From NCBI GenBank assembly GCA_949358305.1, contig OX442314.1, forward strand, positions 32,116,001 to 32,180,000: DNA of 64,000 bases, given 5' to 3'. Shown in pieces: positions 1,143 through 61,728 of this stretch. A program made the position numbers and the translations under genes. The notes under the pieces are model-generated. The model was not told the origin of the DNA, did no database searches, and saw only the letters and a list, made by a program, of their open reading frames with translations. Numbering within the stretch: position 1 is the stretch's first letter; each line of letters starts with the position of its first letter. The DNA is from Strigamia acuminata (taxonomy: Eukaryota).

Positions 1143-1198
1143 TTTCATTTGGTTATTTTTAAAAGAGATCACAAGTTCAGTTTGAGATTTATTTCTAA

Positions 1199-1216: not shown

Positions 1217-1218
1217 CG

Positions 1219-27040: not shown

Positions 27041-27050
27041 TCTTGGGAAT

Positions 27051-32667: not shown

Positions 32668-33686
32668 TGTCGCGCTCAACTCTAACCGTCGCTAACTCGT
32701 GGGTTGATTACTTAATTCGACTAACTCACTACCGCTTTGCTCAAGCGGTTTACCCAAAGAAATGATTACACAGATATAAAAGGTAAAATATAATATAGAT
32801 TTATTCTGTGGGACAATGTACAGATATATCTTATATATATATATATATAAAAGGTAGGTAAAAGGTAAATCGGAATGGGTGAAGGGAAATGGAAAGGTAA
32901 AGGTATGATGAAAGCTGGCTGGAATCGGCGAGGTCGTCTGTTGTCTCGGTCGTGTCCAAGATGGCGTCCTCGTTGTGGCAACGTGGTGTCGTCTTGGGCC
33001 GGCGTGGCAATATGGCGTCCTCGGCTCGTCTCTGGCTGGTCCTTCGGGCTCACGCTGGTCGGGCGCGAGTGAATGCTTAGTTAAAAGGCTTACTTCGGGC
33101 TGTTGTCTAGGTTTTTGTGTGGTGTCCGGCGATCACACAGCGGCGGACTCTTCTGGCTCCCGGCGGTCACACAGCGGCGGGAACGCTCGTCGTGGTTTTA
33201 CTGCAGTTTAGGCTTGTGCGACCGTTTGTCTGCACAACTCGCTAAACTGGAGTGGTTTTTACTATTTCTAGCTGGTGTGCTAAAATAGTGTGGTAATCTT
33301 ATCTCGCAGGTTACTCTGCGGAGTTTGACACTGACCAAACGTACTCACGGTAAATTGTCCTTTGTCCTTGGTCAATCCCAGTATATTTACTTGGGCCTGA
33401 TCTTGTAGGACGACGGGTTTACGTGTGTTTCTCGTTTGATGGTTGTGTTGGTTCTGCCCGCTCAGTGCAAGGCACATTCCTTTGCACAAAGCGGGGTTGA
33501 CAGGTGACCAGAATCACCCAATGGTGGGGTGGACGAGCCATCCCCACTCCCTCAGGGCAGACGCCTGTCCATTGACTAGATGTCAATGCACTGAGGGAAG
33601 GGAGACGCGCTTGCGGCTCCCCTTACACCCGAAACGAGGTCACGAGAGAAACTCTTCGTTGACCCCGGTCCAGTCGGGTCACAACA
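32668..33686 (-). repeat. Element B 3' LTR
   Basis: Direct repeat of 42338-43356; no difference seen by eye. Confidence 0.95.
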
Positions 33687-33722
33687 CTTCCCCCTCCGAG
33701 CTCAGACCGTGGGGCTGAGCGA

Positions 33723-39158: not shown

Positions 39159-39163
39159 GAATG

Positions 39164-39227
39164 GCGCAGACGGTCGAGAAATTATTTCTTCGCCGCCTGC
39201 GCTGACTCGTTTTTTGACTCGTTTTTT
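39164..39227 (-). promoter_or_regulatory. -1 ribosomal frameshift signal of element B
   Basis: A_AAA_AAC occurs twice, then a 6-nt spacer and the stem GCGCAGGCGG...CCGTCTGCGC. Pol is in the -1 frame. Confidence 0.8.
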
Positions 39228-42200
39228 GCCATGGCGAGTTTAATCTCTGCCATCTGCTTCATTATCGCGTCAAACTTAGCGTCTTCTTTCGCTGTTCTTG
39301 GGCACTCATTGGAGTAGTGGCCCGGTTGGTTACACTTGAAACAGCGAATATTTGATTTGTCTCTTGGGGCTTCAGTCGATTTTTTCTTTTCAGGGTCTGC
39401 TTTCGACGGTGGCGTGTAATTTTTCCGAAAATACTTCGGAATTCGACCGGCATTTGGTTTTAACCTGGCGCGAAATTCTTCTACCGCTCTATCTCGATGG
39501 ATGAGATGTACTAGCGGTCCTTCCTCATCGCAACCCGTTGATAAGGTATCGCGATAGCTTCGTATTTCTTCGTCCGTCGAATAATCGTCTTTTTCTTCTT
39601 TTTTGTCTGATTTTCCGGCATCTTGTCCGGCTTCCTCCCCCTCCTTGACCTCCTCCAGTGTCGCTTGCATGGCTGACGCTGTCGGTGCCTTTTTAGGGGC
39701 GGCCAAAGGGTTGGAAGGCAGCGTGGATGTCAGTTTATTTTTTATTTGTAAACCAACGCTAGCTTCTGCCAGCTCCATTATACCGCTAAGATATTCAGTA
39801 GGGCGCATAATTTTATCTGTCGCCCCATATCTTTCCGCACTCAACTTGAGACGTTTAGCGGTTGCTGCTTTCTCCGCTTCTGGTAAAGCGGAATAATATC
39901 TTTTCTCGATATCTATCGTGTTCTCAAACAGGAAGGCGCTCATCTCCTCGTAGCTGCCTCCTGTCGGTGCCCTTTCTTCAAGTAGCACCCTTTGCGAGTA
40001 TTCCGACAAACCGCCGAGAAAGAAAAGGTTGAATCCCGTGGCGTGAAATTCCATCGGGGCCTTTTCGAACAACAATCTGGCGCGAATGTCGTAATCCATT
40101 ATGGTTTCACCAGGCATCTGGCGAAGACCTCGCATCTTTCGGCTCACCTCTTCGGGTGTCTCGCCGTAGCGCAGGTCGAATCTCATTAAAAAGTCGTCCC
40201 AATTGACGCCTTTCAATCCTTGGTACCACTCACGTGCCGAGCCTGTCATTAGCTCGACAATACCGTGGGTGAGCATGTCTCCTACGGTGGCTTTAGTGGC
40301 AGTCTTAATTCGAATTACTTCGTCAAGGAAGCGATCTCCCGCTTTCCATGACCCGTCGAAACGGTTCTGAATATAAAATTGCCACCTAATATTCCCGGTA
40401 ACACTCATGGTGTCACGTCGGGAGACAGCGTATTTTTTCTTTACGCGGTCACCAGTGCTACGATTACGATCGTTTCGTTTGCTCAGATCAATTCCCTCGG
40501 CTTTTAACGAGCCGAGTAGGGCTCTTCCAAGCTCTCCCATCGTATACTGCCGACCCGTCGAATCGGTAAACGCGCTTTGTCGGGGAAGGTCCTGAAACTC
40601 CTCCCGTCGGTGGTCGCTATTTTCCGATCGACGTCGTTTCTCTCTATCGCGCGGAGAGTTGGATCTCTTCCGGCGATTACTTGATTTTTCCTTTCGTCTG
40701 TCGTCGTTGGATGAGGGGTCGGAGCTGGGGTCGGGAGACGGTGAGCGGCGTGGCGGGTTGCGCCGTGAAGAGTTTGACTCTTTCCGGCCCCTACGACGGT
40801 CGTCACGTTCCCTTTCTCTGCGTTCATCGCGTTCTCTTTCCCTTCGTCTTTCTCCGGAACCTCTCTCCGAATCGTGATGACTGGGTGCATTTGACTCCAG
40901 TCCATCTGACGACGAATCACTATTTCCGTAGTGAAAATATTTCGGTCTTTCATCGCGTTTGCCTTCTTCTCGCGAAGAGGTGCGATCATGCGATTGTCTC
41001 CTTGACGACTCGTCGTCTTTAAGGATGGGCACTGGTTGTTGCCACTCAGTCCCTTGTGGATTATCATGCTGTTGGCTTGTGAGAGCTTGCTCTTCATTTC
41101 GCCTAGCATTATTAGCGTTGATTAATCGCGTTATCGCATTATTTGTGGCTGAATCGAGAGCTTGCATGCGGGGCCGAGTTTGTTGTTCTCTGGCCGACGC
41201 ATCTCTCTTGCGCGGAGTAGCTGGTGTTGCTCTCTCCGGCTGGGGTTTGGGTTTGGCCTTCGGCGTGCGCTTTGGGTCTCCCTCTAGGCTCTCGTCGGAC
41301 AGCTCGGATGAACTGACCTCTGGTTTGCGGACGGATTTCGGGTCATCTCGTCGCAATCTGGCCATAAATGCTCGCTCTGCTTCTTGTTGCGAGTGGAAAG
41401 CATATCGATGTGCTCTCAGGGCTCGGTCAACTATTTCTACCTCCTCGGGAGTAGTCGGATTGGGCTGGGTTCTGCCGTACTCGAGAGCTTGCGCTTCTCT
41501 TTCCGCCAGCTTCCTCCGTCTCTCGCGAATGGCTTGACGAGCCTCGTTCTCTGCATCCGCTTCAAATTGAGCGGAATCAACCAATTGTTGAGCGTGTGCA
41601 CCTTCAACAATGGTGATTTGTGGGGATACACTGTGCGCTTTTAAAGCTGCACGTACGATCTGTAACGTTTCGTACACGGTAATTTTCCCCGTCGGAAGGG
41701 TGTATCTCACTCCTTCCGCCTGTGCCAATTGCATCGCATCAATCAAGGTGCCCGAGACGCTGTAAGGCTGGCTCGAAACACGCTTGACAGAGGATGAGTT
41801 GGACTTGTGTCCTTCGGACCTGACCGAAGCTGGGCGGCTTTGCGTAATTGGCGTGTTTAGTGCCGAATTAGCGGTCGTATTTGAGGCCGTCTTTTGTATC
41901 GGAGACGCTGCTTTCGGACTGCCCACCTCGGTGTCGTGCGTTAGACGAGGCGATTGGTTACGGGATAAAACCTCGTTTCCGCTCGTCTCGCCGTCACGGT
42001 TAGAACGCGGCAGTTTGGAGTGAGATTGCTCTTCACCCCGCTCTGTCTCGTCCAATCGCTGCCTCGTCTCGGTGCGAGACGGGTGCGATGCCTCGGATGC
42101 GCTTCTACGATCGGGTTTAGGCTTACGCCGTTTTTGCCTCGCTTCGTGCGCTGAGGCTTTGGGTAAGGGACCTCCAGATCGCAAGTGATAGTCGGCGCCT

Positions 42201-42265
42201 TTACGACTGCCGGCTCTCTTGTTTGCGTCGGAGTCGGAATCTGTTACTCGGGTATTATCTGCCAT
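39182..42265 (-). CDS. gag: Element B Gag (about 1027 aa from ATG 42265)
   Basis: Long low-complexity N-terminus, capsid-like FDGS...AREWY...WDDF...F...Y...Q..GET, and CCHC knuckle CFKCNQPGHYSNEC. Confidence 0.93.
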   Translation of the reverse strand: MADNTRVTDSDSDANKRAGSRKGADYHLRSGGPLPKASAHEARQKRRKPKPDRRSASEASHPSRTETRQRLDETERGEEQSHSKLPRSNRDGETSGNEVLSRNQSPRLTHDTEVGSPKAASPIQKTASNTTANSALNTPITQSRPASVRSEGHKSNSSSVKRVSSQPYSVSGTLIDAMQLAQAEGVRYTLPTGKITVYETLQIVRAALKAHSVSPQITIVEGAHAQQLVDSAQFEADAENEARQAIRERRRKLAEREAQALEYGRTQPNPTTPEEVEIVDRALRAHRYAFHSQQEAERAFMARLRRDDPKSVRKPEVSSSELSDESLEGDPKRTPKAKPKPQPERATPATPRKRDASAREQQTRPRMQALDSATNNAITRLINANNARRNEEQALTSQQHDNPQGTEWQQPVPILKDDESSRRQSHDRTSSREEGKRDERPKYFHYGNSDSSSDGLESNAPSHHDSERGSGERRRERERDERRERERDDRRRGRKESNSSRRNPPRRSPSPDPSSDPSSNDDRRKEKSSNRRKRSNSPRDREKRRRSENSDHRREEFQDLPRQSAFTDSTGRQYTMGELGRALLGSLKAEGIDLSKRNDRNRSTGDRVKKKYAVSRRDTMSVTGNIRWQFYIQNRFDGSWKAGDRFLDEVIRIKTATKATVGDMLTHGIVELMTGSAREWYQGLKGVNWDDFLMRFDLRYGETPEEVSRKMRGLRQMPGETIMDYDIRARLLFEKAPMEFHATGFNLFFLGGLSEYSQRVLLEERAPTGGSYEEMSAFLFENTIDIEKRYYSALPEAEKAATAKRLKLSAERYGATDKIMRPTEYLSGIMELAEASVGLQIKNKLTSTLPSNPLAAPKKAPTASAMQATLEEVKEGEEAGQDAGKSDKKEEKDDYSTDEEIRSYRDTLSTGCDEEGPLVHLIHRDRAVEEFRARLKPNAGRIPKYFRKNYTPPSKADPEKKKSTEAPRDKSNIRCFKCNQPGHYSNECPRTAKEDAKFDAIMKQMAEIKLAMAKNESKNESAQAAKK

Positions 42266-42317
42266 TTCTTGCTTTGGGTATGATGTAATCACAGGTTAGA
42301 ATCAGTTATTCGACTTG

Positions 42318-42335
42318 ATCCCGGACAGGCCCCCA
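42318..42335 (-). promoter_or_regulatory. Primer-binding site, tRNA-Pro-like (element B)
   Basis: TGGGGGCCTGTCCGGGAT next to the 5' LTR. Confidence 0.75.
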
Positions 42336-42337
42336 CG

Positions 42338-43356
42338 TGTCGCGCTCAACTCTAACCGTCGCTAACTCGTGGGTTGATTACTTAATTCGACTAACTCACT
42401 ACCGCTTTGCTCAAGCGGTTTACCCAAAGAAATGATTACACAGATATAAAAGGTAAAATATAATATAGATTTATTCTGTGGGACAATGTACAGATATATC
42501 TTATATATATATATATATAAAAGGTAGGTAAAAGGTAAATCGGAATGGGTGAAGGGAAATGGAAAGGTAAAGGTATGATGAAAGCTGGCTGGAATCGGCG
42601 AGGTCGTCTGTTGTCTCGGTCGTGTCCAAGATGGCGTCCTCGTTGTGGCAACGTGGTGTCGTCTTGGGCCGGCGTGGCAATATGGCGTCCTCGGCTCGTC
42701 TCTGGCTGGTCCTTCGGGCTCACGCTGGTCGGGCGCGAGTGAATGCTTAGTTAAAAGGCTTACTTCGGGCTGTTGTCTAGGTTTTTGTGTGGTGTCCGGC
42801 GATCACACAGCGGCGGACTCTTCTGGCTCCCGGCGGTCACACAGCGGCGGGAACGCTCGTCGTGGTTTTACTGCAGTTTAGGCTTGTGCGACCGTTTGTC
42901 TGCACAACTCGCTAAACTGGAGTGGTTTTTACTATTTCTAGCTGGTGTGCTAAAATAGTGTGGTAATCTTATCTCGCAGGTTACTCTGCGGAGTTTGACA
43001 CTGACCAAACGTACTCACGGTAAATTGTCCTTTGTCCTTGGTCAATCCCAGTATATTTACTTGGGCCTGATCTTGTAGGACGACGGGTTTACGTGTGTTT
43101 CTCGTTTGATGGTTGTGTTGGTTCTGCCCGCTCAGTGCAAGGCACATTCCTTTGCACAAAGCGGGGTTGACAGGTGACCAGAATCACCCAATGGTGGGGT
43201 GGACGAGCCATCCCCACTCCCTCAGGGCAGACGCCTGTCCATTGACTAGATGTCAATGCACTGAGGGAAGGGAGACGCGCTTGCGGCTCCCCTTACACCC
43301 GAAACGAGGTCACGAGAGAAACTCTTCGTTGACCCCGGTCCAGTCGGGTCACAACA
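42338..43356 (-). repeat. Element B 5' LTR
   Basis: TG...CA termini, adjacent to the PBS. Confidence 0.95.
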
Positions 43357-43360
43357 CGTA

Positions 43361-43685
43361 TTATTAGATATTCGAGCTGCGGACCAAATACGTCTCCGTA
43401 GCGTTATTTGTGACGATGCCGCAAAGTCAGCCGTACCCTTCGTGCATCGCCCGGATCCTCAACCAGTGTAGCCGCCGCTTACACGTATCCAGAACCCCGA
43501 ACCATTTGTATTCGTAGAAACAAGCAAGTAAAACCGTAAGTTTGTATCATTTCGTTGTTTTATTCATTTAGCGCACATTTCGTAGCTTATCTCGGTTAGG
43601 TTGTTGTTAGTCTTAACAACGTCTTGTTCCGACCGATTTATCTCTTAAAATGGCTAATAAATCAGCCAAAAGTAGAATCGTCACA
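43361..43685 (+). repeat. Element D 5' LTR, second part
   Basis: Matches 63445-63769. Confidence 0.95.
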
Positions 43686-43687
43686 AG

Positions 43688-46609: not shown

Positions 46610-47085
46610 ACTAGATTTTGTAAAAATCAAGTTAGTAAGTTTTAGTTAAAACTGAAATTTATTATTTGATAAATTCAAATAAAGAACGGAATTCAGCAAA
46701 GCCGTCGATTCAATCGATTCAACGTACTTGTGAAATTGTGGTTTTTAATACTTTAAAAATCCCGTAAAGGTTACCATTTTTATTAATAAAATTGGTGATG
46801 TTTTAAAATACTTGGAAAAGTATCCATTTTATTTGGTGACTACGTCATAACCCTGAAATCTGACAAGATTTAGGTTCCACGAAAATAGTGATTTCCACCA
46901 ATCTCAGATGAGATTAGAGTCTCGCGAGACTGACGTTTGACAATCAACCAATCAGAGAGGTGTATCGAAGTACCCATACTTCCATTCGAAATAGTGTAAC
47001 CACTGCTTCGTTTGCAACCTTCCTGAACGTTACGACTTCATCGTTATCTCTCAGACTTCGGAAATTTTATTTTTCAATTTTAGTT

Positions 47086-48858: not shown

Positions 48859-49678
48859 TGTCGCGTCCTACTTGGTATAGGTTTAAATAGCGCTAACGTG
48901 TAATACTTTACCTGTGATCAATTATGTAAATACCCAAATGAATACCAAATGTATGTAAATAAACAGGTAATTTATTCACCAGGCTTTATGCCTTTAAAAT
49001 ACACTCAGTAATAATTCTAGAGTCGACGTGGTCAGCGTCGAACAAAGGATTTCTCAAGATGGCGTCGTCGATTCCGCGTGGTCGGCGGAACAAAGGCGGC
49101 GTCTCGAGTTGTCGTTAATTCGTCACGGATTCGTCTTCACGGACGCGGTGGAATGCTCTTTCGAGTCTTCTATCCGTGCCTGTTGTCTAGGGTTTGTTTA
49201 GCGTCGCAGAGGCCTCGTCTAGGAACTTTGGGGTTCCCTACAAAGCACTCGGACACTTACTTCGGCGAATAATCGTCTGGGCGATTATTCTGGGTGATTT
49301 CACAAGGGCTATTCTCGTGCTTTCGCAGGAATAGCTCGCAAGTGACTTCGTGAGAGTTACAGTTTGCACTTTACTCAGCGATCCTCGATCAATCCTAACT
49401 TGTAGTTGAAGTTGGCCTGACGGTGAGGTAGTTGCTGTGTTCTTGGTGTCGTTTGTGTAAGTTCTGTCTTTAGGCGGGAAACACAGCCTTTTATGCAGTG
49501 GGGTGAAGGGCCGGCGATCAACCAATGGGGGCTGACCACCAGCCGCTTCCTCCCCCTCGGGGCACACACCTGCCATGGGGAGGTGGAGCCAACTCGGGGG
49601 GGAACGACTCTTTAATCATAGTGACTCATAGGACAAGTATCCGCCCTGGGGGGACACTTATCCAACTGGGTCACCACA
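48859..49678 (-). repeat. Element C 3' LTR
   Basis: Direct repeat of 60909-61728; no difference seen by eye. Confidence 0.95.
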
Positions 49679-49725
49679 CGTCCCTCCTCCAGCTTCGATC
49701 TCGGATCGGAGCGATCTCAATTTTC

Positions 49726-52700
49726 TCATCGCTCTCCTCTGCGAAGAGCCGGCAGCACTCCTCTGCATGGGCGGAGGATCACGGGTGGCACTGCCGGTGG
49801 CGGCGGTGGTAAATCCGGGGGCAGAGAGGTTGTCAGATCCGCAGGATTTTGTCGCTCGTTGATGAAGTACTGCGGGTGACTGCCGGCTGGCTCGCCAACC
49901 AACCCCGTACGCTCATGGATCCAAATCCGGGTAGACGCGGGGAATCGATCGGGGACGAGTCGGATCCTTCGCGACTCGGCGCTCGATCCGGGTTTCCTGT
50001 GGGCCCGTAGGATACGGCGATGGAAGACGGCGTCCATGGTGGATCGGGCTTCTCTGTTTAGCCATTTGAGGATTGATTCGCCGTGATCGTCGGAGTCAAT
50101 GATGCGTTGTCGCGTGAACTCCGACATCTGAAGGAAGGGGTATTCCACTCCCAGCCTCAAATAAAGCTGCGCTGCTGGGGGCGGCGGAGGCGATGGTGGG
50201 AGCGGAATCTCCATTGGGCTCTCCAACGGTGGCGTAGCCGGCTCTGCAGAGAGAGCGGCCAGCCCTGCCGCTGGTGGTGAAGGAGAGGGCAGCGGAGGAG
50301 TTCGGGGTCCTCGCTTGGAACGCTTCGGAATCAATATGGGTCGATTCGCGTGTCGCTTCTCCTTCGGGAATACCGGCTTTGGGGTCGGTATGTATGGTTG
50401 GACCGCCGCCTCTGGGGGGGCGGTCTCGATGGCCTGTGGAAGGCTCGCCGCCGTTCCCGGTATCTCCGGAACCTCCCGAATTGTTCGCAACAAGGAAGGG
50501 TGGACTCCGGGGTTCCGGTAGCGGAATGCCAACGAACGCATCTTTGAAAACTGTAGGCCTGGGTTTTCCGTATTTCTGGCCAGGTCGAAGCGCAGCGAGG
50601 CGGGCTCAGGAGTCCATCCGGCCCATACCTGGTACAACGCCCGAGGAAGGTGAACTCCCTCACGGTCGACGATTGTCCAGGCCGCCATAGCTTGCCGACT
50701 GTCCAAGAAGACGCCCAGGGATAGCAGCTGGGCCAGTACGTTCGTCACAGCCAAATTCAAACTGCTCCGATGGCAGGGGTGAGCGCGGTCCGGATTGTCA
50801 CTGAATTGCTGTGACAACGTCCGCATCTGTTCGATCGCCCAGTTGATGTGGTGAGTTTGGGCGGCGTCGGCCTGTCGTATGGCCAACTCGGCAATCGCGG
50901 GGTTCTCGTATTCGGCCAGATATTCTTGTAACTCGCTGAGTGGGGGATAGGCCGCTTCACGCCGGCATCGAGCGTCCATCTCTCGCTGGGCGTACCATTC
51001 GGCGTTGCGATAAGGTCGACACACTCGTGGCGTTGGGGGTGACGGTGGACGGCCCAGCCCGGGTAGATTATCGTATCTGACCCGCTTCGGAGCTGGATCC
51101 CCCACCGGAATCATCCGGGGAGGGGTCCAAGCGGTCACGGCTGGGTTTGTACCCTCGAGGAGTGGCGGCCATCGCGATTGCACTTGTGGGGGCACAAGCG
51201 CGGTGGGCACAGCCGGTGTTGAGCCCGACGGCCGGTTGGCCGCGTATCCTCGGAAGGCGTTCTTCAATGCTACGGCCAGATCCTGTTTTGTAACCGGCCC
51301 ATCTTTGTCCGACTCATCTGGGGACATTTGCTCTTCCGTCAACTCTCCCAAATCAATCTCTGCTTGGCGCCTGGACGGTCCAGCCGTGGGTCCGAGACTC
51401 TGGGGTTCGGACCGTTTCGCGGCGGCCATCTCTCGCTCCTTCTCTAATCCCTTAGCTATCAGGGATTGTGCTCGCAACTTCTGACGTACTTTGCGCTTTC
51501 GATTCCTCCGGGTGCTGGCTGCGACGGATCTTCGTTGGGCCGTCCTCTGGGGGACGTCCGTCGGAGAATTCGGTCTCTGGTGTGATGAGACGGTTCGTCG
51601 CGACGAGGATTGATCTGACGACTGTGTGGTAATCGCCATGAACAACGAGGATCTTTTCTTTCCTCGATCTTGGTGTGTCTCGGTCCTCGCAGCCCAGTGG
51701 GCGGAAGATTCGACTGTTCGCTCAGCCCGCGCGTCGTCTGGCGAGGCAGGCTCGAGCGTTACTACTCGGCGACACTCCGAGCGCACGACAACTCGAGTTC
51801 GGGAACTGGAGCTGCTCGAGCGGCTGCGGTAGTCGCGGCTCGTTGACGGGCCGGCCTCTATTGGGGAGACGGCCTGTCTTCTTCGTGCGGGTCCGCGTGG
51901 GGCGGACTCCGCCGGACGCTTCGATCTTCTGTGATGGCGGCGACTTCCCAGGATACCAGCGTGGTATAACTGCCACATCTCAGACTGCGTGGCCGTAAAA
52001 TTCGCCGGCGGTATCCATCTGGGTGTCAGATGATTTTCTTCGATGTCGCGAAGCCATCTACGGATTTCTTCGGGGGAGAAACCGTTTCTCTCGAGAACTC
52101 GGGTTACTCCGTGAGTCTCGGTGCGCTTTAAGCGTTTGATCTCGTCGTCCACTATTCTCTGGCGGGCTGCCAAGGTCGGGGCCTCGCTCCACCTATGGGA
52201 GGTGTGCAGCTCGGCCACCGTGCCTGGGTAAGCCTCTTCCAGGTACCCGGAGTAAACGGGGCTCGGCGGATCCGCATCGGGTGGGATCCGCGGCCCCACT
52301 CGCTCCCTCATCTCCTTCGTCATGCACTCGACCAGCGTTTTTGATCGCTCGAATTTTTCCTCGAGGGTCCTGGAATACATCAATCGGATTTTCCAGGCGC
52401 TGGTCTCTGCAGGATAGGCCTGCCGCAGGTAAATCGGCAGGGCTCCGCGAAAGATGTTGTTGGCGGTTGACGCCGTCGGAGGCAGGGCGTCCCACGATTC
52501 TAGCGGGTCGACCTGAATAATTTTAGATCACAAGATTAATATAATAAATCCCAGTTAACGATGGGGATCAGAAATATGCTCAAGATCGACGGTGGCAGCA
52601 ACTCCTTTCTTTTGTTGCGGCCGTCGGTCTTATTTTCTTGTTTCGCAGTTCTGCGATGATCTCCGCCGTCGTAGCGCTGATCCAACACTACTTTTGAACT

Positions 52701-53190
52701 CAGGTGATCCGCTTTTTTGGAAGGGGTCGCAGGCAAAACCGATCGTTAAATTTTAATTTCTTACGTTAAACTTTTTTATTTTAACTCTAATCGTATTTTA
52801 ATTTATTACGATGTTTAAATTTAAAAGAAAGAAAACCTTTAGTTTTGGTTTTGGTTTGCCACGACGCCATTCCGCGAACACTTCCTTTGTTCTAGTTTTT
52901 TGGCGGCCTTGACTCCGAGGTGAATCTGGGTCCACTCTCGGGTTTTTAGCCAGCCTTAAATCAACAATAAAACAGAAAGAAATATATCAGTCACAAGTCA
53001 CGCTCCAATCTGGGTTGGATGCAACAGATTCAAAGAATTATGTGATTTCTCTGGGGAAATCACACTAATTTACCTGCAACGGCGGTTGTTCGTCCCAATT
53101 CTCATCTTCTTCTGCATTTACGATTAGGCCGTCGCTCTCGTCTCTCGACGATGCGCTCGGCTCTAATCGTGGGTTGCGTCGATCGGCCAT
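49726..53190 (-). CDS. Element C ORF3: predicted two-exon accessory gene (53074-53190 + 49726-52512; 967 aa) of unknown function
   Basis: The 885-aa ORF extends upstream to the acceptor TTATTCAG|GTC at 52513. An upstream 39-codon ATG exon ends in CAG|GTAAAT, and both junctions are phase 0. The C-terminal half is homologous to the Pol extension of element B. Confidence 0.8.
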
Positions 53191-53570
53191 TTCAATTTAG
53201 GAAAGAGAAGTTTTTGTTTGAGAGGTCTTTGTTTTCTCTTTGGGGAGAAGCAAAAAACACGTCTCGTCGTGTTAAAAACAGTCGGAAACTGGGCCTATCG
53301 ACGCTGAGAATTGTGGGTCTCGAACGCGTCTCGTATTTTGCGAGATCCGCCGTGCTGGCAATGACGCTACGGGGTCGACCGCGTGGTTTCGTTGTCACGT
53401 GGTCGCCCGATACGTCATAACTTCTCGTCTGTTAGTGGTGACTGCGACAATTCGTTGCGAAGTTTGGACTTAGCCAAATTTTCGCGTCTCAACATGTGCA
53501 GCAGCTCTCGTAAGTAAATCTTTTTATTTTACAAGGCCTCCGCTCCATGTTATCACATTTTCTTTTATTT

Positions 53571-56500
53571 TTAGTTCTTCCCCACGACTTTGCCGTCCCG
53601 AATGAACGGATTATTGCTTCGTCGTGGTCGAAGGTTGATTTTCGACGTGCTCGTAGATCGTGACTCTACTTGCTCGTTCATCTCCGATGTGTTGGCATTT
53701 TTCTCATTATTAATTTTTTTATTTTCCATTTCAGAAGTACATTCTTCTGCTTCCTCCCTCTCCGAAATTGCTTGCTCCGGCTGAGTTGGAGCCTCGTCGG
53801 CTGGGGATTCGGCGTCGAAGAATTCATCCTCGTTTTCCGCTATATTTTCAGCTTCATTTGTTTTTTGGAACGTGTCGACCACGGTGCCCCCTTGGCCGCT
53901 GTGTGTCTGACCTTCCAGCCAAATTTCCTGTGGAAATTCTGGCAGATATGGCCTTAAATCTCGGCCATGTATCGACTGAAAATTTTTGTTGTCCTCTAGG
54001 CGGCGTAGTTGGTATGCGTTGCCTCCGTGTTCGGCCACAATTACGTAGGGACCGTCCCTCTTGTCGGCTAAACCGGCGGCGATGCCCCTCGCTGCATTGG
54101 ACAACGTGTGTGCCTCCTTCCACACTAGATCATTCACTTTAAAGTTCGCGAAAGCGAGATCGCCTTCTTTATCTGCGATTCTCTCTCTCATGTTGAAAAT
54201 ATGCGCCATCATATGCTGGTACGTGTCGGATATAGTCTGTTCCAACCGGCACACGTACTCATGTGGGCTCGACGGGTCTAATACGTTAACAGCTTCGGCA
54301 ACGCGTGGGTCCCATGGCATCCTTAATTCGCGGGCGAAGTTGAGGTACGCCGGTGAGAATTCGCGTGTTCGTGACACGGTTGAGCGAATGCTGAAAGCGA
54401 TTTCTCGCAGGTATTCGTCCCATCGATTGTGAATGTCGGTGAATACTGTCAGCGCATATTTTATATCTTTATTTAATCTCTCGACTGGGTTTGTCTGAGG
54501 ATTATATGTGGAGGTGTTCGATGCATCCATTTTAAATTTCCTACAGAAGTCCTTATATATTCTTGATCGGAATTGGGGGCCGTTATCCGAAATGAGTTTT
54601 CTGGGAAACCCAAATCGCATTGCCACGTCGTAAAGGCACTCGACTATGTTTTCAGCCGAGGGCTTCGCGAGGGCGTACAGCTCCGGCCATCGGGTGGCCA
54701 CGTCCATAATTACGAGAATATACATGTTCTTGTTTCCCGTTGTGGGCTTGGGGCCCATCAAGTCTATGCTTAAGCAGTCAAACGGTGCGTAGGGTCCGAG
54801 AGACATGGCGTTTCTGGCTACTTTATCTCGCGGTCTGCATGCTTGGCACCGGGGGCAGTGTCGGATAAATTTCGTTATCTTTTGCCGCGCGCCCGGCCAG
54901 AAGAAAAGTTGTTTTACTCGATAAAGGGTCCTCGCCACGCCAGAATGGCTGGCGAGCGGGTGTCCGTGCATCAGCCACAACAGTCGGGTGTGCAGTGATG
55001 CCGGCACGACCACTTTAACCGAGTTTCCCGCTCCGCTGAGGTCATCTTGAAACGTCGGGTGGTATTTTACCAGGAGTTCATCATCTATGAGGTAGCTTGT
55101 TGCTTCTTTGACGAACTGTTTCCGGCGGTGTGGGTTTGTCATCCCTTCCGGAAATTCGCCGTTCAGCAAATATTGCGTTATAATTTGACATTTTGTGTCT
55201 GCTGCCTGGTGTTCGACGAACTCACGTCTCGTGGGTGGAGCGTATTGTGTTTTTTCTTCAATTTTTGCTGTGAAGGCGCGTAGTAGTGTTTTGTGGGTTT
55301 CTCCGGGGGGCGGAGATTGAATTTCGGATGTTGAATTGTTTGTCCCAGCTGGCTGGTATGTTCGAGTCCAAAAACCACAAAACGTTCTATCTTCAGGCTC
55401 CATCACTGGTAGCTCGTTCGCCTTTCGCAAACGCCATATTCTCCGTGGAGTCGGGCAGTACAAGAGGTGGGTGTCGTCCTCGCCGTCGTCGTCTGGTCCT
55501 TGGGGGTCAGAGGCTGGGGCTCTCGAGAGGGCGTCGGCCACATGATTGTACTTCCCGGGGCGGTACGTAATTGTTATATCGCACGCCATTAACTCCAGTT
55601 GCCATCGTGCGAGTCGGCCGGAGGGTTCCTTGAGCTTCATCAACCAGCTTAGTGCCTGGTGATCTGTCTGAACCTCGAAGTTCGTGTACTCCAGATAGTC
55701 GCGAAATTTCCGAACTGCCCAAATTACGGCTAGGCATTCTAGTTCCGTTGCCGTATAATTTTTCTCCGCGCCCTGTATTTTTCTGCTTATAAACATACAG
55801 GGTACTTCTTGCGAGATTCCGTTGTACACGTGGGTCTGCAGAAGGGCTGCACCCAGTCCGATTTTACTCGCGTCGGTGTGCAACACGAACGGTCGGTTTA
55901 GGTCCGGCAATGGCATCTTTTCGACGTCAGCCAGCATTTGCTTGATAGTGCTAAATGCGGCCTCGCACTGGACCGTCCACTCAAACTCTTTATCCGTTCG
56001 TAAGAGATCCGTTATAGGCGCGGCCACTTCAGCCAGACCAGAGAGTAGTCGGCCGAAGAAATTGACCATGCCCATGAATCTCTGGACACCTTTTATATCT
56101 TCGGGGGCGGGGAATCCGTTTATTGCTTTGACTTTTTCGGGGTCAATCGCGATTCCCTCGACTCCTATTCGATATCCTAGGAAGGCAAGCTCTTTCCTGC
56201 AAAACTTGCTCTTCCCTGGATGGATGTGGAGTCCTGCCTTGGCTAGGCGAGAGACCACTCTATCGATGTGGTCTATGTGTTCTTCGAATGTGTCCGACGT
56301 TATTATGATGTCGTCGAGATACGCCCACACGAAGTCGTGCAGCATATCTCCCAACACGCTTTCGATCAGTTTCTGGAACGTGCTCGGGGCGTTTACAAGC
56401 CCGAACGGCATCACGTTGAACATTAGTCTTCCTATCGGGGAGTAGAAAGCCGTTTTCAGTTTGTCTTCGGGTTTTAGCTCCACTTGCCAATACCCCTTTG

Positions 56501-57602
56501 ACAGGTCCATGGTGGTTACCCACTTGAACGGGCTCAGTTCCCGGAGGATCGAGTCTATAGACGGCATCTGAATCGGGTCTATAACCGTTATCGCGTTCAG
56601 GGGGCGATAATCAATGCATAGTCGAGGTTCCGAGCCTGGACGCATCACCAGGACGATCCGCATGGCGTATTCGCCCAGGGCTTGCGTTACTATGCCCTTG
56701 TCGAGCATGTCTTGGCACATTTGCGTCACGATGTCTCTTTTCTGGGGGTTCATCCCCTTGTAAGGCACTCGAATCGGCTTGTCTGTGGTTAAGACTATTT
56801 CGTGTGTTGCTTCCGTCGTTCGACCAGGTGTCTTGGTCAGAATTCTTTCATGCTTTCGAAGCACTCGCCTTAGTAGCGATGCCTCGTTAACACGCAGTGC
56901 TGCCTCCTCGACCAGGGTGTCCACGACGTTACTCCTCTGTAATTCCAGAGTGAAGGCTGCGAAATCGTAATCTTGGACGAATTTTCGCAATCCTCTTCCG
57001 TATTCCTCTTTGTCCTTGGCTTCGTCCAGTAATTTTTGGGGAACTACGGGGACTGATCGTTCTCCCTCGGGACTTATCCAGTTCCATGAACGGGTTATCG
57101 GGTTTGGCTGAATTTTCAGTTTCGCCATGATGTCCATCCCTAGGAGGAATACTTTGTCGTGGGATGGCAAGACTATGAAGGGGTGGGACAGGTTCCCCCC
57201 CGTCCAGTCGATCATGATGCGAACTACGCCCTTCGGCTTGACGTAGCCGTTGGCGGTGAGCAATTCTACGTTCGCGTTCACTTGTGCCACCTTCTTTCCA
57301 ATATCCAAGTCTTTTACTATATCTTCGGATATGAATGAACGATCCGCTCCTGAATCCAGTAGACCGAACAATTTTTGGTTTTCTATCTCCACTGGCAGCA
57401 TACACAGAGTTTCGCAATGTGCTTTCGTGACATTGCAGTGAAATACGCGTAATGTCTGGGGCTCAACCTCCAGATTGAACGGAAGGTCCGTCCAATCCAT
57501 GTCGACCTCCGGTTTCGTTCTCACTTGCATACTCGTTAACGTCACTTTTTCCTCCTTCTTCGGAACGATCTGTATGCGGTCTTTGATCTGTGCCTCTGCC
57601 AA
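53571..57602 (-). CDS. pol: Element C Pol (PR-RT-RNase H-IN), -1 frame relative to gag
   Basis: LLDSGA, YLDD, LHTDAS, HHCC, SDNG and GPY motifs; strongly similar to element B Pol. The frame is open up to the slippery site at 57701-57707. Confidence 0.96.
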   Translation of the reverse strand: MAEAQIKDRIQIVPKKEEKVTLTSMQVRTKPEVDMDWTDLPFNLEVEPQTLRVFHCNVTKAHCETLCMLPVEIENQKLFGLLDSGADRSFISEDIVKDLDIGKKVAQVNANVELLTANGYVKPKGVVRIMIDWTGGNLSHPFIVLPSHDKVFLLGMDIMAKLKIQPNPITRSWNWISPEGERSVPVVPQKLLDEAKDKEEYGRGLRKFVQDYDFAAFTLELQRSNVVDTLVEEAALRVNEASLLRRVLRKHERILTKTPGRTTEATHEIVLTTDKPIRVPYKGMNPQKRDIVTQMCQDMLDKGIVTQALGEYAMRIVLVMRPGSEPRLCIDYRPLNAITVIDPIQMPSIDSILRELSPFKWVTTMDLSKGYWQVELKPEDKLKTAFYSPIGRLMFNVMPFGLVNAPSTFQKLIESVLGDMLHDFVWAYLDDIIITSDTFEEHIDHIDRVVSRLAKAGLHIHPGKSKFCRKELAFLGYRIGVEGIAIDPEKVKAINGFPAPEDIKGVQRFMGMVNFFGRLLSGLAEVAAPITDLLRTDKEFEWTVQCEAAFSTIKQMLADVEKMPLPDLNRPFVLHTDASKIGLGAALLQTHVYNGISQEVPCMFISRKIQGAEKNYTATELECLAVIWAVRKFRDYLEYTNFEVQTDHQALSWLMKLKEPSGRLARWQLELMACDITITYRPGKYNHVADALSRAPASDPQGPDDDGEDDTHLLYCPTPRRIWRLRKANELPVMEPEDRTFCGFWTRTYQPAGTNNSTSEIQSPPPGETHKTLLRAFTAKIEEKTQYAPPTRREFVEHQAADTKCQIITQYLLNGEFPEGMTNPHRRKQFVKEATSYLIDDELLVKYHPTFQDDLSGAGNSVKVVVPASLHTRLLWLMHGHPLASHSGVARTLYRVKQLFFWPGARQKITKFIRHCPRCQACRPRDKVARNAMSLGPYAPFDCLSIDLMGPKPTTGNKNMYILVIMDVATRWPELYALAKPSAENIVECLYDVAMRFGFPRKLISDNGPQFRSRIYKDFCRKFKMDASNTSTYNPQTNPVERLNKDIKYALTVFTDIHNRWDEYLREIAFSIRSTVSRTREFSPAYLNFARELRMPWDPRVAEAVNVLDPSSPHEYVCRLEQTISDTYQHMMAHIFNMRERIADKEGDLAFANFKVNDLVWKEAHTLSNAARGIAAGLADKRDGPYVIVAEHGGNAYQLRRLEDNKNFQSIHGRDLRPYLPEFPQEIWLEGQTHSGQGGTVVDTFQKTNEAENIAENEDEFFDAESPADEAPTQPEQAISEREEAEECTSEMENKKINNEKNANTSEMNEQVESRSTSTSKINLRPRRSNNPFIRDGKVVGKN

Positions 57603-57655
57603 GGCATGACCTGCGGGTCCAGTGTGATATTTCTTCTTTTTAATTTCCGCGGCTG

Positions 57656-57707
57656 GCGCAGACGAAGCTGAATTTATTTTGGCGACGCCTGCGCTTGGAA
57701 GTTTTTT
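57656..57707 (-). promoter_or_regulatory. -1 ribosomal frameshift signal of element C
   Basis: A_AAA_AAC, 6-nt spacer, stem GCGCAGGCG...CGTCTGCGC. Confidence 0.8.
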
Positions 57708-60700
57708 GCCAGATCAGTTCTTAACTCCATCATCATTTTCATCATGGTTTGCATGATGTCCTTTTCTTTGACGGTTTTCTCACATTTATCTGAGTAGTGA
57801 CCGTATTCTCCGCAGCTGTAACATTTGATGTTACTTTTATCCCCTGTGGGAGTGAATCCCGGTTTTTTCGGGACGAAGGGCGTCGGGAATCGTCTTTTTC
57901 CTCCCAATGCCCCTCTCGCTTTTGTTGCCTGCACGTGTGCTCTGAATTGTGCGATTGCTAAGGCCCGGTGTGCATGGTGCAAATAGGGACCTTGATCGTC
58001 GCATCCCGTCGACAAGTTTTCGAGGTGCTCATTTAGGGCTTCCTCGTCGCTTGATGCTGGCTCCTCTTCTTTAGCCGTGGCGAGAGGTGTTGTCTCTTCG
58101 ACTTTCTCCATCTGGGTGGAGTCCGTCGAGGTCACCTGCATCGCCGTTGCTGCCGGTGCTTTCTTTGGGGCAGCTATCGGGTTGGCTGGAAGAATACTGC
58201 CTGCTTTAGGCGTCAGCATTCGTCCGAAGGATGCTTCGGTGAGACTCATTATGCCGCTCAAATATTCACTTGGCCTCATTAATTTTTCTGAGGTCTTGTG
58301 GCGTTCGGCGCTCGTCTGCAACCGCTTCTCGTGCGCGTCAGCTTCTTCCGGGGGCAGAGTGGCGTAATACCGCTGTTCTATTTCTAACGTGTTTGTTAGA
58401 AGATAGTTACTGACATCTTGGTAATCGCCAGTGCGGGGTGCACGCATGTCTAGCAGAATTCTTTGCGAGTGGGCCGATAATCCTCCGTAAAAGATCATCG
58501 TAAAACCAGCGGGGTTTATTTCGTACGGCGCTCTTGCAAACAGGAGTTTCGCTCGGGCGTCGTAGTCGGCTAATGTTTCTCCTGGGGCTTGCCGTAGACC
58601 ACGTAATTTGTTACTGATCTCGTCTGGAGTCTCGCCGTATCGGAGATCGAAACGGACGAGAAAATCGTCCCAGGTTGGGTTTTTCAGTCCCTGATACCAT
58701 TCTCGAGCTGACCCCGTGGTTAGCTCCACTAGACCGTGGGTTAGCATGTCGGCGACGGTGGCTTTTGTCGCTTTCTTGATACGCATTACTTCGTCTAGGA
58801 AGCGGTCTCCGGCCTTCCACGAACCGTCGAATCGTGTTTGTATGTAGTGTTGCCAACGGATGTTACCCGTGGCTTCGCTGCTTGGTTCGTTTCGTACGCC
58901 ATATTTACGCTTAACCCTCTCTCCAGCGCGATTATGTTCGTCGCCTGGATGGCCTAGATCGATTCCTTCTCTTCTGAAAGAGTTCAGCAGGGCTCGTCCT
59001 AGCTCAGACATCGTGTAATGTCGGCCAGATGAGTCCTGAAAGTTCCCTTCCTCCGAACGAGGGTTGGAGCTCCGGGAGGAGCGGTCTGAAGCATTCGGCC
59101 GGTTCGACCGGTGCCCATCGCTGTCTTCTTGACTCCTCCCTGTAGACGGTCGACTCGGATGGTCGTCGTCCGACGAATCGGAGGGCTCGGAGGGATCTCC
59201 TTGGGGGTGAAACCTCGGCCCTCTCGGTGGGGTCTCTCCGCCAGCCTTCTTCTGTTTCGAGCCTCCGGATGGCGGCGGCTCCCCTCCGTCGTTGTTCTCG
59301 TAAAAAGAATGCCATCTGTTTTCCTCGCTTTCGGGGCGTTCCCGATTTTTATTTGCGTTTTTCTTTTCGAGTAACGCGTCGATGGCTGCTCCCGTCTCGG
59401 ATCTTTTTGAGGGGTGACGGTCCTTTGTTTTTGGGACCGACTCGTCTCTCTTTTGAGATTTCCCCCTTTTCGCCGTTTTTGCCGGCTTTGTTGCACCTTC
59501 TCCTGTGTCGGTATCAGAGCCGCTGGGGGGTTCTGGTTTCCGTTTCAGGTTTTCTTCATTTTTCTTCCTGTCCGAGACGTCTTGTGCGTACTCTTTCTGG
59601 AACTTTTCTGTCTCCTTCTCCCAGTTTTCGGCTTCCCATCTTTTTTGCTCATCTATTATAGCTTGTTTCTTCGCTTTGTACTCTTCGGTCCATCTGACTC
59701 GATCCCACTCTTCTTTCTCTTTCAGAAACTGTTCTTTTTCTTTTCTGGCTTCCTCTTCTCTCAACCTCTCGCGATGTTGTTCTTCCCATTTCTGATGTTG
59801 TAGAATGGCCTCTTTTCGCAACATTTGTAGTTTTTCTGTTTTTCTTTGAGCTATTAGCGCTTGAAATTGGTCCTCGTACTCTTGAGCTTCTCGATGTCGC
59901 CCTTCTACTGTTGCGTTCCATTCTTTTCGAATTTTAGCTTCTCGTTCTTCCCTCATTTTTTGGACCAGTTTCTCTGTTCTCTCGGTGGTTCTTCTCTCGC
60001 GTTGCTCCCTTTCTTCCTCTTCCTTCCAGAGTTCTCGCCGCTCTGCGCTCAGCCTTCGTTGGCGACTAGTCGCTTCTTGTCTGGCTTCCTCGCGGGCCTT
60101 CTCTCTGGATTCGTGAAGTGTTCGGTTGGGGTCTGGCGCGAAACCTCCGGTGTCACTGGGCGTTACCTGGGGCATGGGCGTCTCCGCTGCTGGTCTTGCG
60201 ACCGGCGTCGGGGCTTGTGCCGCACAGATAGCGTCAGTGAGTAGGGTAATCGATTCCCAGACTGACGTTCCTACTGGAATGTCTATCATCGCTTTTAGCT
60301 GGGCAGCTTGCTGCGTCAACCGAATTAGGTGAGATACTTCGAAGGAAACAACTGCAGGACTCGCCGTAACTCGGGGGGTTATCGGGGTCCCGCCGTCGTT
60401 TTTCCGTGGGGTTTGTTTTACGGACGTCTGAGCCGTTGGTGGCGATGGGTCTGTGCCGATCGTGACCGTTCTTTTCGGAGCTTCATCCGTCTCCTCGGTC
60501 ATCAATATCGATACTCGTCCTGGTGATATCTCGCGAATTTCTTCTCGATTTTCTATGGCTTCCGGATCGGTATCTTCGAAGGGTTGCATATTCAAGGGAA
60601 CCCGCTCTCGCTCTGGCCCGTCTAGGGCCGCGAGCGATGCAGCTTGCTCCTCTTTCTGCGCCTTCGCTCTCCTTTTATTCGCTCGGGCTTTCGCCTTTGC

Positions 60701-60814
60701 GGACATTTCAGGGACGGGACCATCCGATCTCAGGTGGTAGTCGGAGGTCCTTTTTCCCTTCTCGGGCATTCTCTGCTCGGTTTCAGACGTGGATTGCTCG
60801 TCTTTGTCTGACAT
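57674..60814 (-). CDS. gag: Element C Gag (1046 aa)
   Basis: E/K/R-rich coiled-coil-like region, capsid region shared with B gag, and CCHC knuckle CYSCGEYGHYSDKC. Confidence 0.94.
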   Translation of the reverse strand: MSDKDEQSTSETEQRMPEKGKRTSDYHLRSDGPVPEMSAKAKARANKRRAKAQKEEQAASLAALDGPERERVPLNMQPFEDTDPEAIENREEIREISPGRVSILMTEETDEAPKRTVTIGTDPSPPTAQTSVKQTPRKNDGGTPITPRVTASPAVVSFEVSHLIRLTQQAAQLKAMIDIPVGTSVWESITLLTDAICAAQAPTPVARPAAETPMPQVTPSDTGGFAPDPNRTLHESREKAREEARQEATSRQRRLSAERRELWKEEEEREQRERRTTERTEKLVQKMREEREAKIRKEWNATVEGRHREAQEYEDQFQALIAQRKTEKLQMLRKEAILQHQKWEEQHRERLREEEARKEKEQFLKEKEEWDRVRWTEEYKAKKQAIIDEQKRWEAENWEKETEKFQKEYAQDVSDRKKNEENLKRKPEPPSGSDTDTGEGATKPAKTAKRGKSQKRDESVPKTKDRHPSKRSETGAAIDALLEKKNANKNRERPESEENRWHSFYENNDGGEPPPSGGSKQKKAGGETPPRGPRFHPQGDPSEPSDSSDDDHPSRPSTGRSQEDSDGHRSNRPNASDRSSRSSNPRSEEGNFQDSSGRHYTMSELGRALLNSFRREGIDLGHPGDEHNRAGERVKRKYGVRNEPSSEATGNIRWQHYIQTRFDGSWKAGDRFLDEVMRIKKATKATVADMLTHGLVELTTGSAREWYQGLKNPTWDDFLVRFDLRYGETPDEISNKLRGLRQAPGETLADYDARAKLLFARAPYEINPAGFTMIFYGGLSAHSQRILLDMRAPRTGDYQDVSNYLLTNTLEIEQRYYATLPPEEADAHEKRLQTSAERHKTSEKLMRPSEYLSGIMSLTEASFGRMLTPKAGSILPANPIAAPKKAPAATAMQVTSTDSTQMEKVEETTPLATAKEEEPASSDEEALNEHLENLSTGCDDQGPYLHHAHRALAIAQFRAHVQATKARGALGGKRRFPTPFVPKKPGFTPTGDKSNIKCYSCGEYGHYSDKCEKTVKEKDIMQTMMKMMMELRTDLAKNFQAQASPK

Positions 60815-60888
60815 TTTCTTTCGGTAATTCTACGATTTGGGTTATCTTATTGAGAGATCACAAGTTCAGATTTGAGATTTATTTCTAA

Positions 60889-60906
60889 ATCCCGGACAGA
60901 CCCCCA
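60889..60906 (-). promoter_or_regulatory. Primer-binding site, tRNA-Pro-like (element C)
   Basis: TGGGGGTCTGTCCGGGAT. Confidence 0.75.
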
Positions 60907-60908
60907 CG

Positions 60909-61728
60909 TGTCGCGTCCTACTTGGTATAGGTTTAAATAGCGCTAACGTGTAATACTTTACCTGTGATCAATTATGTAAATACCCAAATGAATACCAAAT
61001 GTATGTAAATAAACAGGTAATTTATTCACCAGGCTTTATGCCTTTAAAATACACTCAGTAATAATTCTAGAGTCGACGTGGTCAGCGTCGAACAAAGGAT
61101 TTCTCAAGATGGCGTCGTCGATTCCGCGTGGTCGGCGGAACAAAGGCGGCGTCTCGAGTTGTCGTTAATTCGTCACGGATTCGTCTTCACGGACGCGGTG
61201 GAATGCTCTTTCGAGTCTTCTATCCGTGCCTGTTGTCTAGGGTTTGTTTAGCGTCGCAGAGGCCTCGTCTAGGAACTTTGGGGTTCCCTACAAAGCACTC
61301 GGACACTTACTTCGGCGAATAATCGTCTGGGCGATTATTCTGGGTGATTTCACAAGGGCTATTCTCGTGCTTTCGCAGGAATAGCTCGCAAGTGACTTCG
61401 TGAGAGTTACAGTTTGCACTTTACTCAGCGATCCTCGATCAATCCTAACTTGTAGTTGAAGTTGGCCTGACGGTGAGGTAGTTGCTGTGTTCTTGGTGTC
61501 GTTTGTGTAAGTTCTGTCTTTAGGCGGGAAACACAGCCTTTTATGCAGTGGGGTGAAGGGCCGGCGATCAACCAATGGGGGCTGACCACCAGCCGCTTCC
61601 TCCCCCTCGGGGCACACACCTGCCATGGGGAGGTGGAGCCAACTCGGGGGGGAACGACTCTTTAATCATAGTGACTCATAGGACAAGTATCCGCCCTGGG
61701 GGGACACTTATCCAACTGGGTCACCACA
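60909..61728 (-). repeat. Element C 5' LTR
   Basis: TG...CA termini, adjacent to the PBS. Confidence 0.95.

What the first reader, a model, noticed from the sequence alone, without database searches (positions are those of the whole stretch)
49726..53190. Gypsy element carries a large spliced, non-env third gene of unrecognised type
Seen: between pol and the 3' LTR, where env would sit, element C has a sense-strand 39-codon exon (MADRRNPRLEPS...QPPLQ|GTAAAT). A 561-bp phase-0 intron follows, then an uninterrupted 2.8-kb exon, giving 967 aa. An in-frame TGA just upstream of the acceptor fits an intron boundary. The protein shows no signal peptide or transmembrane segment by eye, but it has Arg/Ser-rich and NLS-like stretches (RRNRKRKVRQK) and two globular-looking domains separated by Pro-rich linkers. 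Established: errantivirus ORF3s are membrane Env proteins. Inference: this is an intracellular accessory factor (transactivator, RNA-binding/export protein or silencing suppressor) of a complex LTR retrotransposon.
Basis: partly seen in the sequence, partly recalled or inferred. Interest (0 to 1): 0.85.

Follow-up and report, generated by a model that had tools for sequence, protein, structure and literature searches.

The report
Retrotransposon's selected, non-envelope third gene
A recently inserted gypsy-type jumping gene carries, where retroviruses keep their envelope gene, a large, likely spliced gene for a non-membrane protein whose two conserved domains are kept by selection in a sister element, match no known family, and likely act in the nucleus on the element's own RNA.

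Summary
Element C (identical 820-bp LTRs, intact gag and pol) has a 39-codon exon, a 561-nt phase-0 intron and a 928-codon exon (967 aa). No RNA run was available, so splicing is inferred. The donor ranks 1 of 527 GTs, the best G+C change point (39% to 61%) falls exactly at the acceptor, and all 6 listed copy-to-copy indels between pol and the 3' LTR avoid both exons. So the gene is under purifying selection but evolves faster than gag or pol. It is not Env: no signal peptide, conserved transmembrane helix or Env family hit. Its only credible outside relative is an uncharacterised centipede protein (E 2e-4, one domain); no fold match was found. Best guess: a nuclear regulator of the element's RNA, like CERV of Cer1 or Rev (0.4); transactivator or anti-silencing factor is a close rival. 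Non-Env third genes are known, and this scan noted other kinds elsewhere; no earlier finding matched this sequence.

The parts
60909..61728 (-). 5' LTR of element C (TG...CA, 820 bp). TATA-like box near 61545, AATAAA at 61026, candidate splice donors at 61310 and 60961, no ATG from 61545 to 60900
   Evidence: 4-bp target duplication AATT
60889..60906 (-). Primer-binding site, nearly the same in elements A, B and C; resembles a tRNA-Pro site (recalled, not verified)
   Evidence: not found in the PBS table searched
57674..60829 (-). gag ORF with CCHC knuckle; overlaps pol at an AAAAAAC heptamer, a likely -1 frameshift site
53571..57713 (-). pol ORF, order PR-RT-RNase H-IN (Ty3/gypsy)
53191..53570 (-). 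Non-coding spacer with a candidate upstream acceptor at 53238; tolerates indels among copies
53074..53190 (-). ORF3 exon 1 (predicted): 39 codons, acidic (11 D/E, 4 K/R), ATG with A at -3 and G at +4
52513..53073 (-). Predicted 561-nt GT-AG intron, 39% G+C, stops in all three frames; competing acceptor at 52955; hairpin just after the donor
49726..52512 (-). ORF3 exon 2, 928 codons plus stop, 61% G+C
51940..52512 (-). Probable folded N-terminal region of exon 2 (inferred from composition only; no homolog available)
   Evidence: no Pfam hit
51025..51940 (-). Arg/Ser-rich then Pro-rich low-complexity region with basic NLS-like motifs (RRNRKRK from 51510; PAPKRVR)
50518..51012 (-). Conserved domain D1, predicted all-helical; 42% identical to element B; weak match to Strigamia maritima T1IVY2
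49843..50166 (-). Conserved domain D2; 41% identical to element B; no outside match
48859..49678 (-). 3' LTR of element C, identical to the 5' LTR, preceded by a polypurine tract; strongly folding stretch at 49201-49350
33723..35170 (-). Homolog of the C-terminal half of ORF3 in element B, read in frame from the end of pol in this copy (junction near 35140-35170)
   Evidence: (tblastn 34%, E 8e-64)
32668..43357 (-). Element B: sister family (RT-RNase H 81% identical to C), identical LTRs of about 1,020 bp, 4-bp target duplication

Best explanation
ORF3 is a selected, non-envelope accessory gene of a Ty3/gypsy lineage, likely made from a spliced subgenomic RNA, whose product is predicted to be nuclear and would most likely bind the element's own transcripts and help unspliced genomic RNA leave the nucleus, as CERV does for Cer1 and Rev for HIV. 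Shown: open frame, position, conservation of two domains in a sister family, no Env hallmarks. Inferred: (1) the LTR transcript is spliced from a donor in the 5' LTR (61310 or 60961) to the acceptor at 53238, removing gag-pol, and again across the 561-nt intron, so the exon 1 ATG is the first ATG of the message; (2) the basic and Arg/Ser-rich region gives nuclear entry and RNA contact; (3) D1 and D2 are interaction modules. Because the full-length RNA keeps strong splice sites, it would need such help to be exported unspliced. Confidence: about 0.95 for a functional non-Env gene, 0.8 for the intron, 0.4 for the RNA-export role.
For: Selection: B versus C amino-acid identity 42% (D1) and 41% (D2), second codon positions 65% and 62% identical, four-fold sites 9 of 38 and 6 of 17; dN 0.57 and 0.60 against dS 1.86 and saturated. 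Copy variation: 13 of 24 listed substitutions in the two ORF3 stretches are synonymous against 27-31% expected, P 0.005-0.014. All 6 listed indels between pol and the 3' LTR avoid the exons, P 0.0003. Splicing: donor rank 1 of 527, acceptor rank 9 of 955; best G+C change point at 52513; upstream acceptor rank 8 and LTR donors ranks 4 and 7; no ATG in the LTR leader. Nuclear: four basic NLS-type motifs. Precedent: CERV is spliced, nuclear, has three domains with flexible linkers and is required for gRNA export (PMC10309623, sections 9 and 15).
Against: No sequence or fold link to CERV, Rev or any RNA-binding family was seen. The basic region has no homolog to test, because this B copy lacks it. 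The single NES-pattern match lies in a D1 helix and is absent from B. At 967 aa the protein is far larger than CERV (517 aa, PMC10309623) or Rev-type proteins (recalled). Folding z below -2.5 occurs in 32 of 84 windows of C and 16 of 50 of B, so no single response element stands out. A competing acceptor at 52955 scores higher than 52513 (3.7 against 3.0) and would end the frame after two codons. The top LTR donors of B and C are not in the same alignment columns. The splice weights were approximate and recalled. The variant and indel tables were truncated (40 of 413, 40 of 53, 12 of 29 shown). The B copy with a truncated ORF3 inserted recently (identical LTRs).
Confidence: 0.4

Rival explanations
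1. ORF3 is a nuclear transactivator or anti-silencing factor that works on the element's DNA or chromatin (like foamy-virus Tas or plant VANC), possibly from an internal promoter in the spacer after pol.
For: Acidic, Trp-containing exon 1 and Pro-rich tracts resemble activation regions (inference). NLS-type motifs. Faster evolution than the gag capsid region (65%), integrase (77%) or RT-RNase H (81%) fits an arms race. Tas and Bet come mainly from an internal promoter with splicing (PMC13220597, search listing).
Against: No DNA-binding family or fold was recognised. No internal promoter was tested. CpG is not depleted in the element (observed/expected 1.04-1.16), giving no sign of methylation pressure.
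Confidence: 0.3
2. ORF3 is a cytoplasmic or particle-associated helper: integration targeting, particle transport or cell-to-cell transfer, or an antagonist of RNA silencing. The in-frame pol fusion in B could then be a working variant.
For: In this B copy D1 and D2 follow integrase in one 1,838-codon frame with identical LTRs. Accessory domains after integrase do target integration elsewhere (PMC6673714, abstract and passages).
Against: Contigs of both runs leave the B sequence at 35149-35156, which fits a deletion junction in this copy; how common the fused form is could not be measured. There is no short transmembrane product like sORF2 (bioRxiv 2025.03.14.642691, abstract).
Confidence: 0.2
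3. The gene is real but unspliced: translation starts at the ATG at 52380 (884 aa), and the 39-codon upstream frame is incidental.
For: No spliced read was seen; the acceptor has a weak pyrimidine tract.
Against: The G+C step sits at the acceptor, not at 52380. The 44 codons between them are open. The ATG at 52380 has T at -3. Listed indels flank exon 1 but none falls in it. The donor is the best of 527.
Confidence: 0.12
4. ORF3 is a diverged Env or a decaying, non-functional passenger.
For: It sits in the env position; one 19-residue window in D1 reaches hydropathy 1.75.
Against: The matching window scores 1.07 in B; there is no hydrophobic N-terminus, 6 Cys and 1 N-glycosylation sequon in 932 aa; no Pfam hit at E 0.1; clear purifying selection.
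Confidence: 0.03

Closest known systems
CERV of C. elegans Cer1 (PMC10309623; abstract, sections 9 and 15 read)
   Same: Extra gene of an animal LTR retrotransposon; spliced mRNA; three structured domains with flexible linkers; candidate NLS; no homology outside its lineage; fast divergence.
   Different: CERV is 517 aa from 5 exons, three in the gag frame, with a Cys loop and a G-protein-like domain. ORF3 lies wholly after pol, is 967 aa and Cys-poor. No G-protein-like fold appeared among the D1 matches, and its function is untested. CERV was not aligned directly.
Non-Env ORF3s of bdelloid Juno/Vesta elements (PMC5408684; abstract, section 3.3)
   Same: A third ORF in an animal Ty3/gypsy element that is not an envelope.
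   Different: Those are recognisable captured enzymes (GDSL esterase, DEDDy exonuclease); no enzyme family or fold was found here.
Env ORF3 of errantiviruses, F-type or HSV/gB-type (PMC13524379; passages and supplement rows)
   Same: Sense ORF between pol and the 3' LTR, probably on a subgenomic spliced RNA.
   Different: No signal peptide, conserved transmembrane helix, Cys-rich glycosylated ectodomain or Env family hit.
Retand TRP28 additional ORFs of plants (PMC11963269; abstract)
   Same: Conserved domain of unknown function between pol and the 3' LTR, proposed to be regulatory.
   Different: Antisense, plant-specific; no Pfam match of ORF3 to any family.
Strigamia maritima T1IVY2 (P0122, uncharacterised, 514 aa)
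   Same: About 96 columns of D1 align at 28% identity (E 2.1e-4 in 1.84 billion; hhalign probability 96%).
   Different: No D2; its first 350 aa do not resemble ORF3; whether it lies in a retrotransposon is unknown.

Membership tests
Ty3/gypsy LTR retrotransposon | TG...CA LTRs, target duplication, PBS, PPT, gag, pol order PR-RT-RH-IN | tested here: met
Errantivirus Env | N-terminal signal peptide | tested here: not met
   No hydrophobic window near either possible start by Kyte-Doolittle scan and by reading exon 1; SignalP not available
Errantivirus Env | C-terminal transmembrane anchor | tested here: not met
   Best C-terminal window 0.82; the one window at 1.75 is internal to D1 and scores 1.07 in B
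Errantivirus Env | Homology to F-type or gB-type fusion proteins | tested here: inconclusive
   0 Pfam families at E 0.1, 0 PDB sequences at E 1, no fold match for D1 at E 0.001; models of modest confidence; N-terminal region not modelled
CERV/Rev-type export factor | Encoded by a spliced mRNA of the element | tested here: inconclusive
   Indirect support only; no RNA run listed
CERV/Rev-type export factor | NLS or arginine-rich motif | tested here: met
   Four pattern matches; motif level only, conservation untestable
CERV/Rev-type export factor | Leucine-rich nuclear export signal | tested here: inconclusive
   One match in C inside a D1 helix, none in the B fragment
CERV/Rev-type export factor | Required for export of unspliced RNA; binds it | not testable with these tools
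   Needs cell experiments
CERV protein family (homology) | H, M (Cys loop) and G domains | tested here: inconclusive
   CERV was not aligned directly. ORF3 has 6 Cys in 932 aa; D1 is predicted all-helical; no nematode protein among 2 hits in the 1.84-billion search
Rotifer enzymatic ORF3 (GDSL, DEDDy) | Recognisable enzyme domain | tested here: inconclusive
   No Pfam hit; not among the fold matches of D1; other regions lack usable models

The most novel reading that the evidence does not exclude
An invertebrate Ty3/gypsy lineage has independently evolved a complex-retrovirus programme: a doubly spliced message encoding a 967-aa nuclear regulator built from a previously undescribed helical domain family, old enough to be shared with a centipede protein, that controls export or expression of the element's own genome.
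Probability: 0.35. Interest if true: 0.72.

Novelty: new variant of a known kind. Interest (0 to 1): 0.55.

Why it matters
Regulatory accessory proteins are a hallmark of complex retroviruses; among animal LTR retrotransposons I found one worked-out case (CERV). How such elements export unspliced RNA despite strong splice sites is an open question. This gives a young, intact, apparently abundant family with defined domains, candidate splice joints and a natural truncation, all testable. D1 and D2 matched no family or fold in the libraries searched.

Tried and rejected
No whole genome is held. No RNA holder listed; runs X1 and X2 are of unrecorded kind and cover the intron evenly, and the 53074-52512 joint is not among the 15 of 45 joints shown. 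This is no evidence either way. Homolog searches: 0 hits for residues 495-900 among proteins of 512-1631 aa; only P0122 itself for the three-sequence D1 profile among proteins of 302-2000 aa; none confirmed of 73 viral and 214 metagenome pattern matches; no Pfam family for ORF3 or its parts; no PHROG family; no PDB sequence (two hits at E 0.7 and 1.4 ignored); no usable Atlas feature hit. The second representative hit, P0123 (E 6e-4), is a fungal WD40 protein scoring by summed weak repeats and was rejected; it warns that E-values at this level can mislead. The D1+D2 model was unusable (pLDDT 41). The D1 model (pLDDT 61, pTM 0.46) had no Foldseek match at E 0.001 in PDB or BFVD and a best Z of 7.4 (rmsd 2.7, 83 aligned) to generic helical bundles. 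D2 and the N-terminal region were not fold-searched. The D1 two-copy prediction gave no verdict. An apparent internal repeat in the N-terminal region was not significant (26 of 500 shuffles), nor was similarity among the three domains. No Rfam match at E 0.5. Troyka was rejected by its CG termini and 3-bp duplications (PMC12440569, abstract). Osvaldo membership is doubtful, as Culex Osvaldo elements use tRNA-Lys (PMC3286476, passages); no RT tree was built because no clade references were at hand. Paper searches listed no description of this family; the library lacks most subscription journals and Repbase, and bioRxiv supplements were closed.

Full report
Observation. Element C lies on the minus strand at 48859-61728. 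Its 820-bp LTRs are identical and flanked by a 4-bp duplication. It has a gag with a CCHC knuckle and a pol in PR-RT-RNase H-IN order, overlapping at an AAAAAAC heptamer. After pol come a 380-nt spacer, a 39-codon frame from the ATG at 53190 to a CAG|GTAAAT donor, 561 nt with stops in all three frames, and an acceptor at 52513 preceded by an in-frame TGA. The frame 52527-49726 is open for 933 codons, against at most 355 in 200 shuffles. The 967 aa is 39 + 928 by arithmetic.

Is it spliced? This is not shown directly, because no RNA run was listed. Four indirect lines agree. First, with approximate, recalled splice weights the donor ranks 1 of 527 GTs in the element and the acceptor 9 of 955 AGs. 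Second, the best single G+C change point in 52200-52800 is at 52513, from 39% to 61%. Third, of the 12 indels shown (of 29) among copies in two genomic-looking runs, 6 lie between pol and the 3' LTR; 4 are upstream of the ATG, 2 are in the intron and none is in either exon (P 0.0003 if random). Fourth, the exon 1 ATG has a good context and the fallback ATG at 52380 does not. Against this, an acceptor at 52955 scores higher and would stop the frame after two codons. A further acceptor at 53238 (rank 8), LTR donors at 61310 and 60961, and the absence of any ATG from 61545 to 60900 suggest a doubly spliced message whose first ATG is that of exon 1. This is inference; the best donors of B and C do not share alignment columns.

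Is it functional? The neighbouring element B (RT-RNase H 81% identical) carries a homolog of residues 443-915 of the exon 2 frame (34%, E 8e-64), read in frame from the end of its pol. Contigs of both runs leave this sequence at 35149-35156, as expected if this copy has an internal deletion; how common that form is could not be measured. Conservation concentrates in D1 (50518-51012, 42%) and D2 (49843-50166, 41%), with the linker at 28%. Third codon positions (38% and 36%) are as diverged as in RT (37%). dN is 0.57 and 0.60, against dS of 1.86 and saturated. Among listed substitutions, 4 of 7 in C and 9 of 17 in B are synonymous, against 27-31% expected (P 0.005-0.014); 10 of 13 tested in the pol of C are synonymous. 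These come from truncated tables (40 of 413 and 40 of 53). No indel was listed in the 2.5-kb B stretch. Contig depth is high and even over element C, which fits a large family but is not a copy number. The gene is therefore selected, though looser than the gag capsid region (65%), integrase (77%) or RT-RNase H (81%).

What is the protein? It is not Env by the features tested: no hydrophobic N-terminus, no C-terminal anchor, 6 Cys and 1 sequon in 932 aa. One internal window reaches hydropathy 1.75 but is 1.07 in B and is modelled as a bundle helix. The layout is an acidic exon 1, a probably folded region of about 190 aa, an Arg/Ser-rich and Pro-rich stretch with NLS-type motifs, D1, a Pro-rich linker, D2 and a Pro-rich tail. 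A full HMMER scan of 1.84 billion representatives with the B+C profile gave 2 hits at E up to 0.001. One is a WD40 artefact. The other is Strigamia maritima T1IVY2, a single stretch over D1 (hhalign probability 96%, 28% of 96 columns), which I regard as a probable homolog of unknown genomic context. It hints at an arthropod host but does not show one. Adding it to the profile found nothing further. D1 models as all-helical at modest confidence (pLDDT 61), with only generic bundle matches. The best RT-RNase H identity among 120 retrieved pol proteins is 46%, so the lineage is poorly represented in the databases and its clade is undetermined.

Mechanism. I commit, at 0.4, to a nuclear regulator that helps unspliced element RNA leave the nucleus. 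The reasons are the strong splice sites that the genomic RNA must keep unused, a likely multiply spliced message, basic and Arg/Ser-rich tracts, and the CERV precedent (PMC10309623, abstract and sections 9 and 15). No step of that function is shown. The NES-like match is not conserved, and RNA structure is widespread: 32 of 84 windows in C and 16 of 50 in B have z below -2.5, strongest at 53026-53175 and 49201-49350, with no Rfam match. A transactivator or anti-silencing role (0.3) and a cytoplasmic or particle role (0.2) remain open.

Comparison with what is known. Non-Env third genes are described in rotifers (PMC5408684, abstract and section 3.3), in plants (PMC11963269, abstract) and as short fusogens in insects (bioRxiv 2025.03.14.642691, abstract). 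The metazoan Env survey (PMC13524379, passages and supplement rows) selected elements by Env, and the passages seen do not describe such a gene. Also consulted: PMC12440569 (abstract), PMC3286476, PMC6673714 and PMC12859917 (passages); foamy-virus papers as search listings only. Nine searches listed no description of this family, within a library that lacks most subscription journals and Repbase. Earlier notes of this scan had no look-alike sequence and nothing in this genome, but list six other non-Env third genes in other genomes (unchecked), so the class recurs.

Verdict. This is a real, selected, probably spliced accessory gene with two domains unmatched in the libraries searched. It works plausibly like CERV or Rev but is not shown to belong to either family. 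New variant of a known kind; interest 0.55.

Noticed in passing
window 33723-39239 (-): Element B has one 1,838-codon frame in which pol runs into the C-terminal half of the ORF3 homolog. Contigs of both runs diverge at the junction, which fits an in-frame internal deletion; the frequency of the fused form is unknown.
   Followed up: partly
window 31332-32668 + 43357-43687 and 62109-63771: Element B is inserted into a copy of another repeat; an uninterrupted copy lies at 62109-63771 (99.9-100% identical).
   Followed up: no
window 6552-13037 (+): Intact BEL/Pao element with identical 578-bp LTRs and a 1,764-codon ORF.
   Followed up: partly
window 1-2037 (-): 5' end of a third related element: LTR 92% identical to C, with differences concentrated in the first 220 bases; the gag N-terminus is about 60% identical.
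   Followed up: partly
window 57674-60829 and 39182-42295 (-): Both gags are over 1,000 codons; the 5' half is charged, low-complexity and poorly conserved, while the 3' half aligns at 52%.
   Followed up: no
window 53026-53175 (-): Strong predicted RNA structure (z -6.5, 0 of 200 shuffles): one hairpin inside exon 1 and one just after the donor; could regulate splicing.
   Followed up: partly
window 46918-48267 (+): 449-codon frame with a weak retrotransposon gag match (E 0.09).
   Followed up: no
window 26558-27279: Tandem array of 10- and 20-bp units.
   Followed up: no
window 13551-15246 and 20353-22048: 1.7-kb direct repeat at 99.9% identity with no frame of 200 codons or more between the copies; possibly a non-autonomous LTR element.
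   Followed up: no
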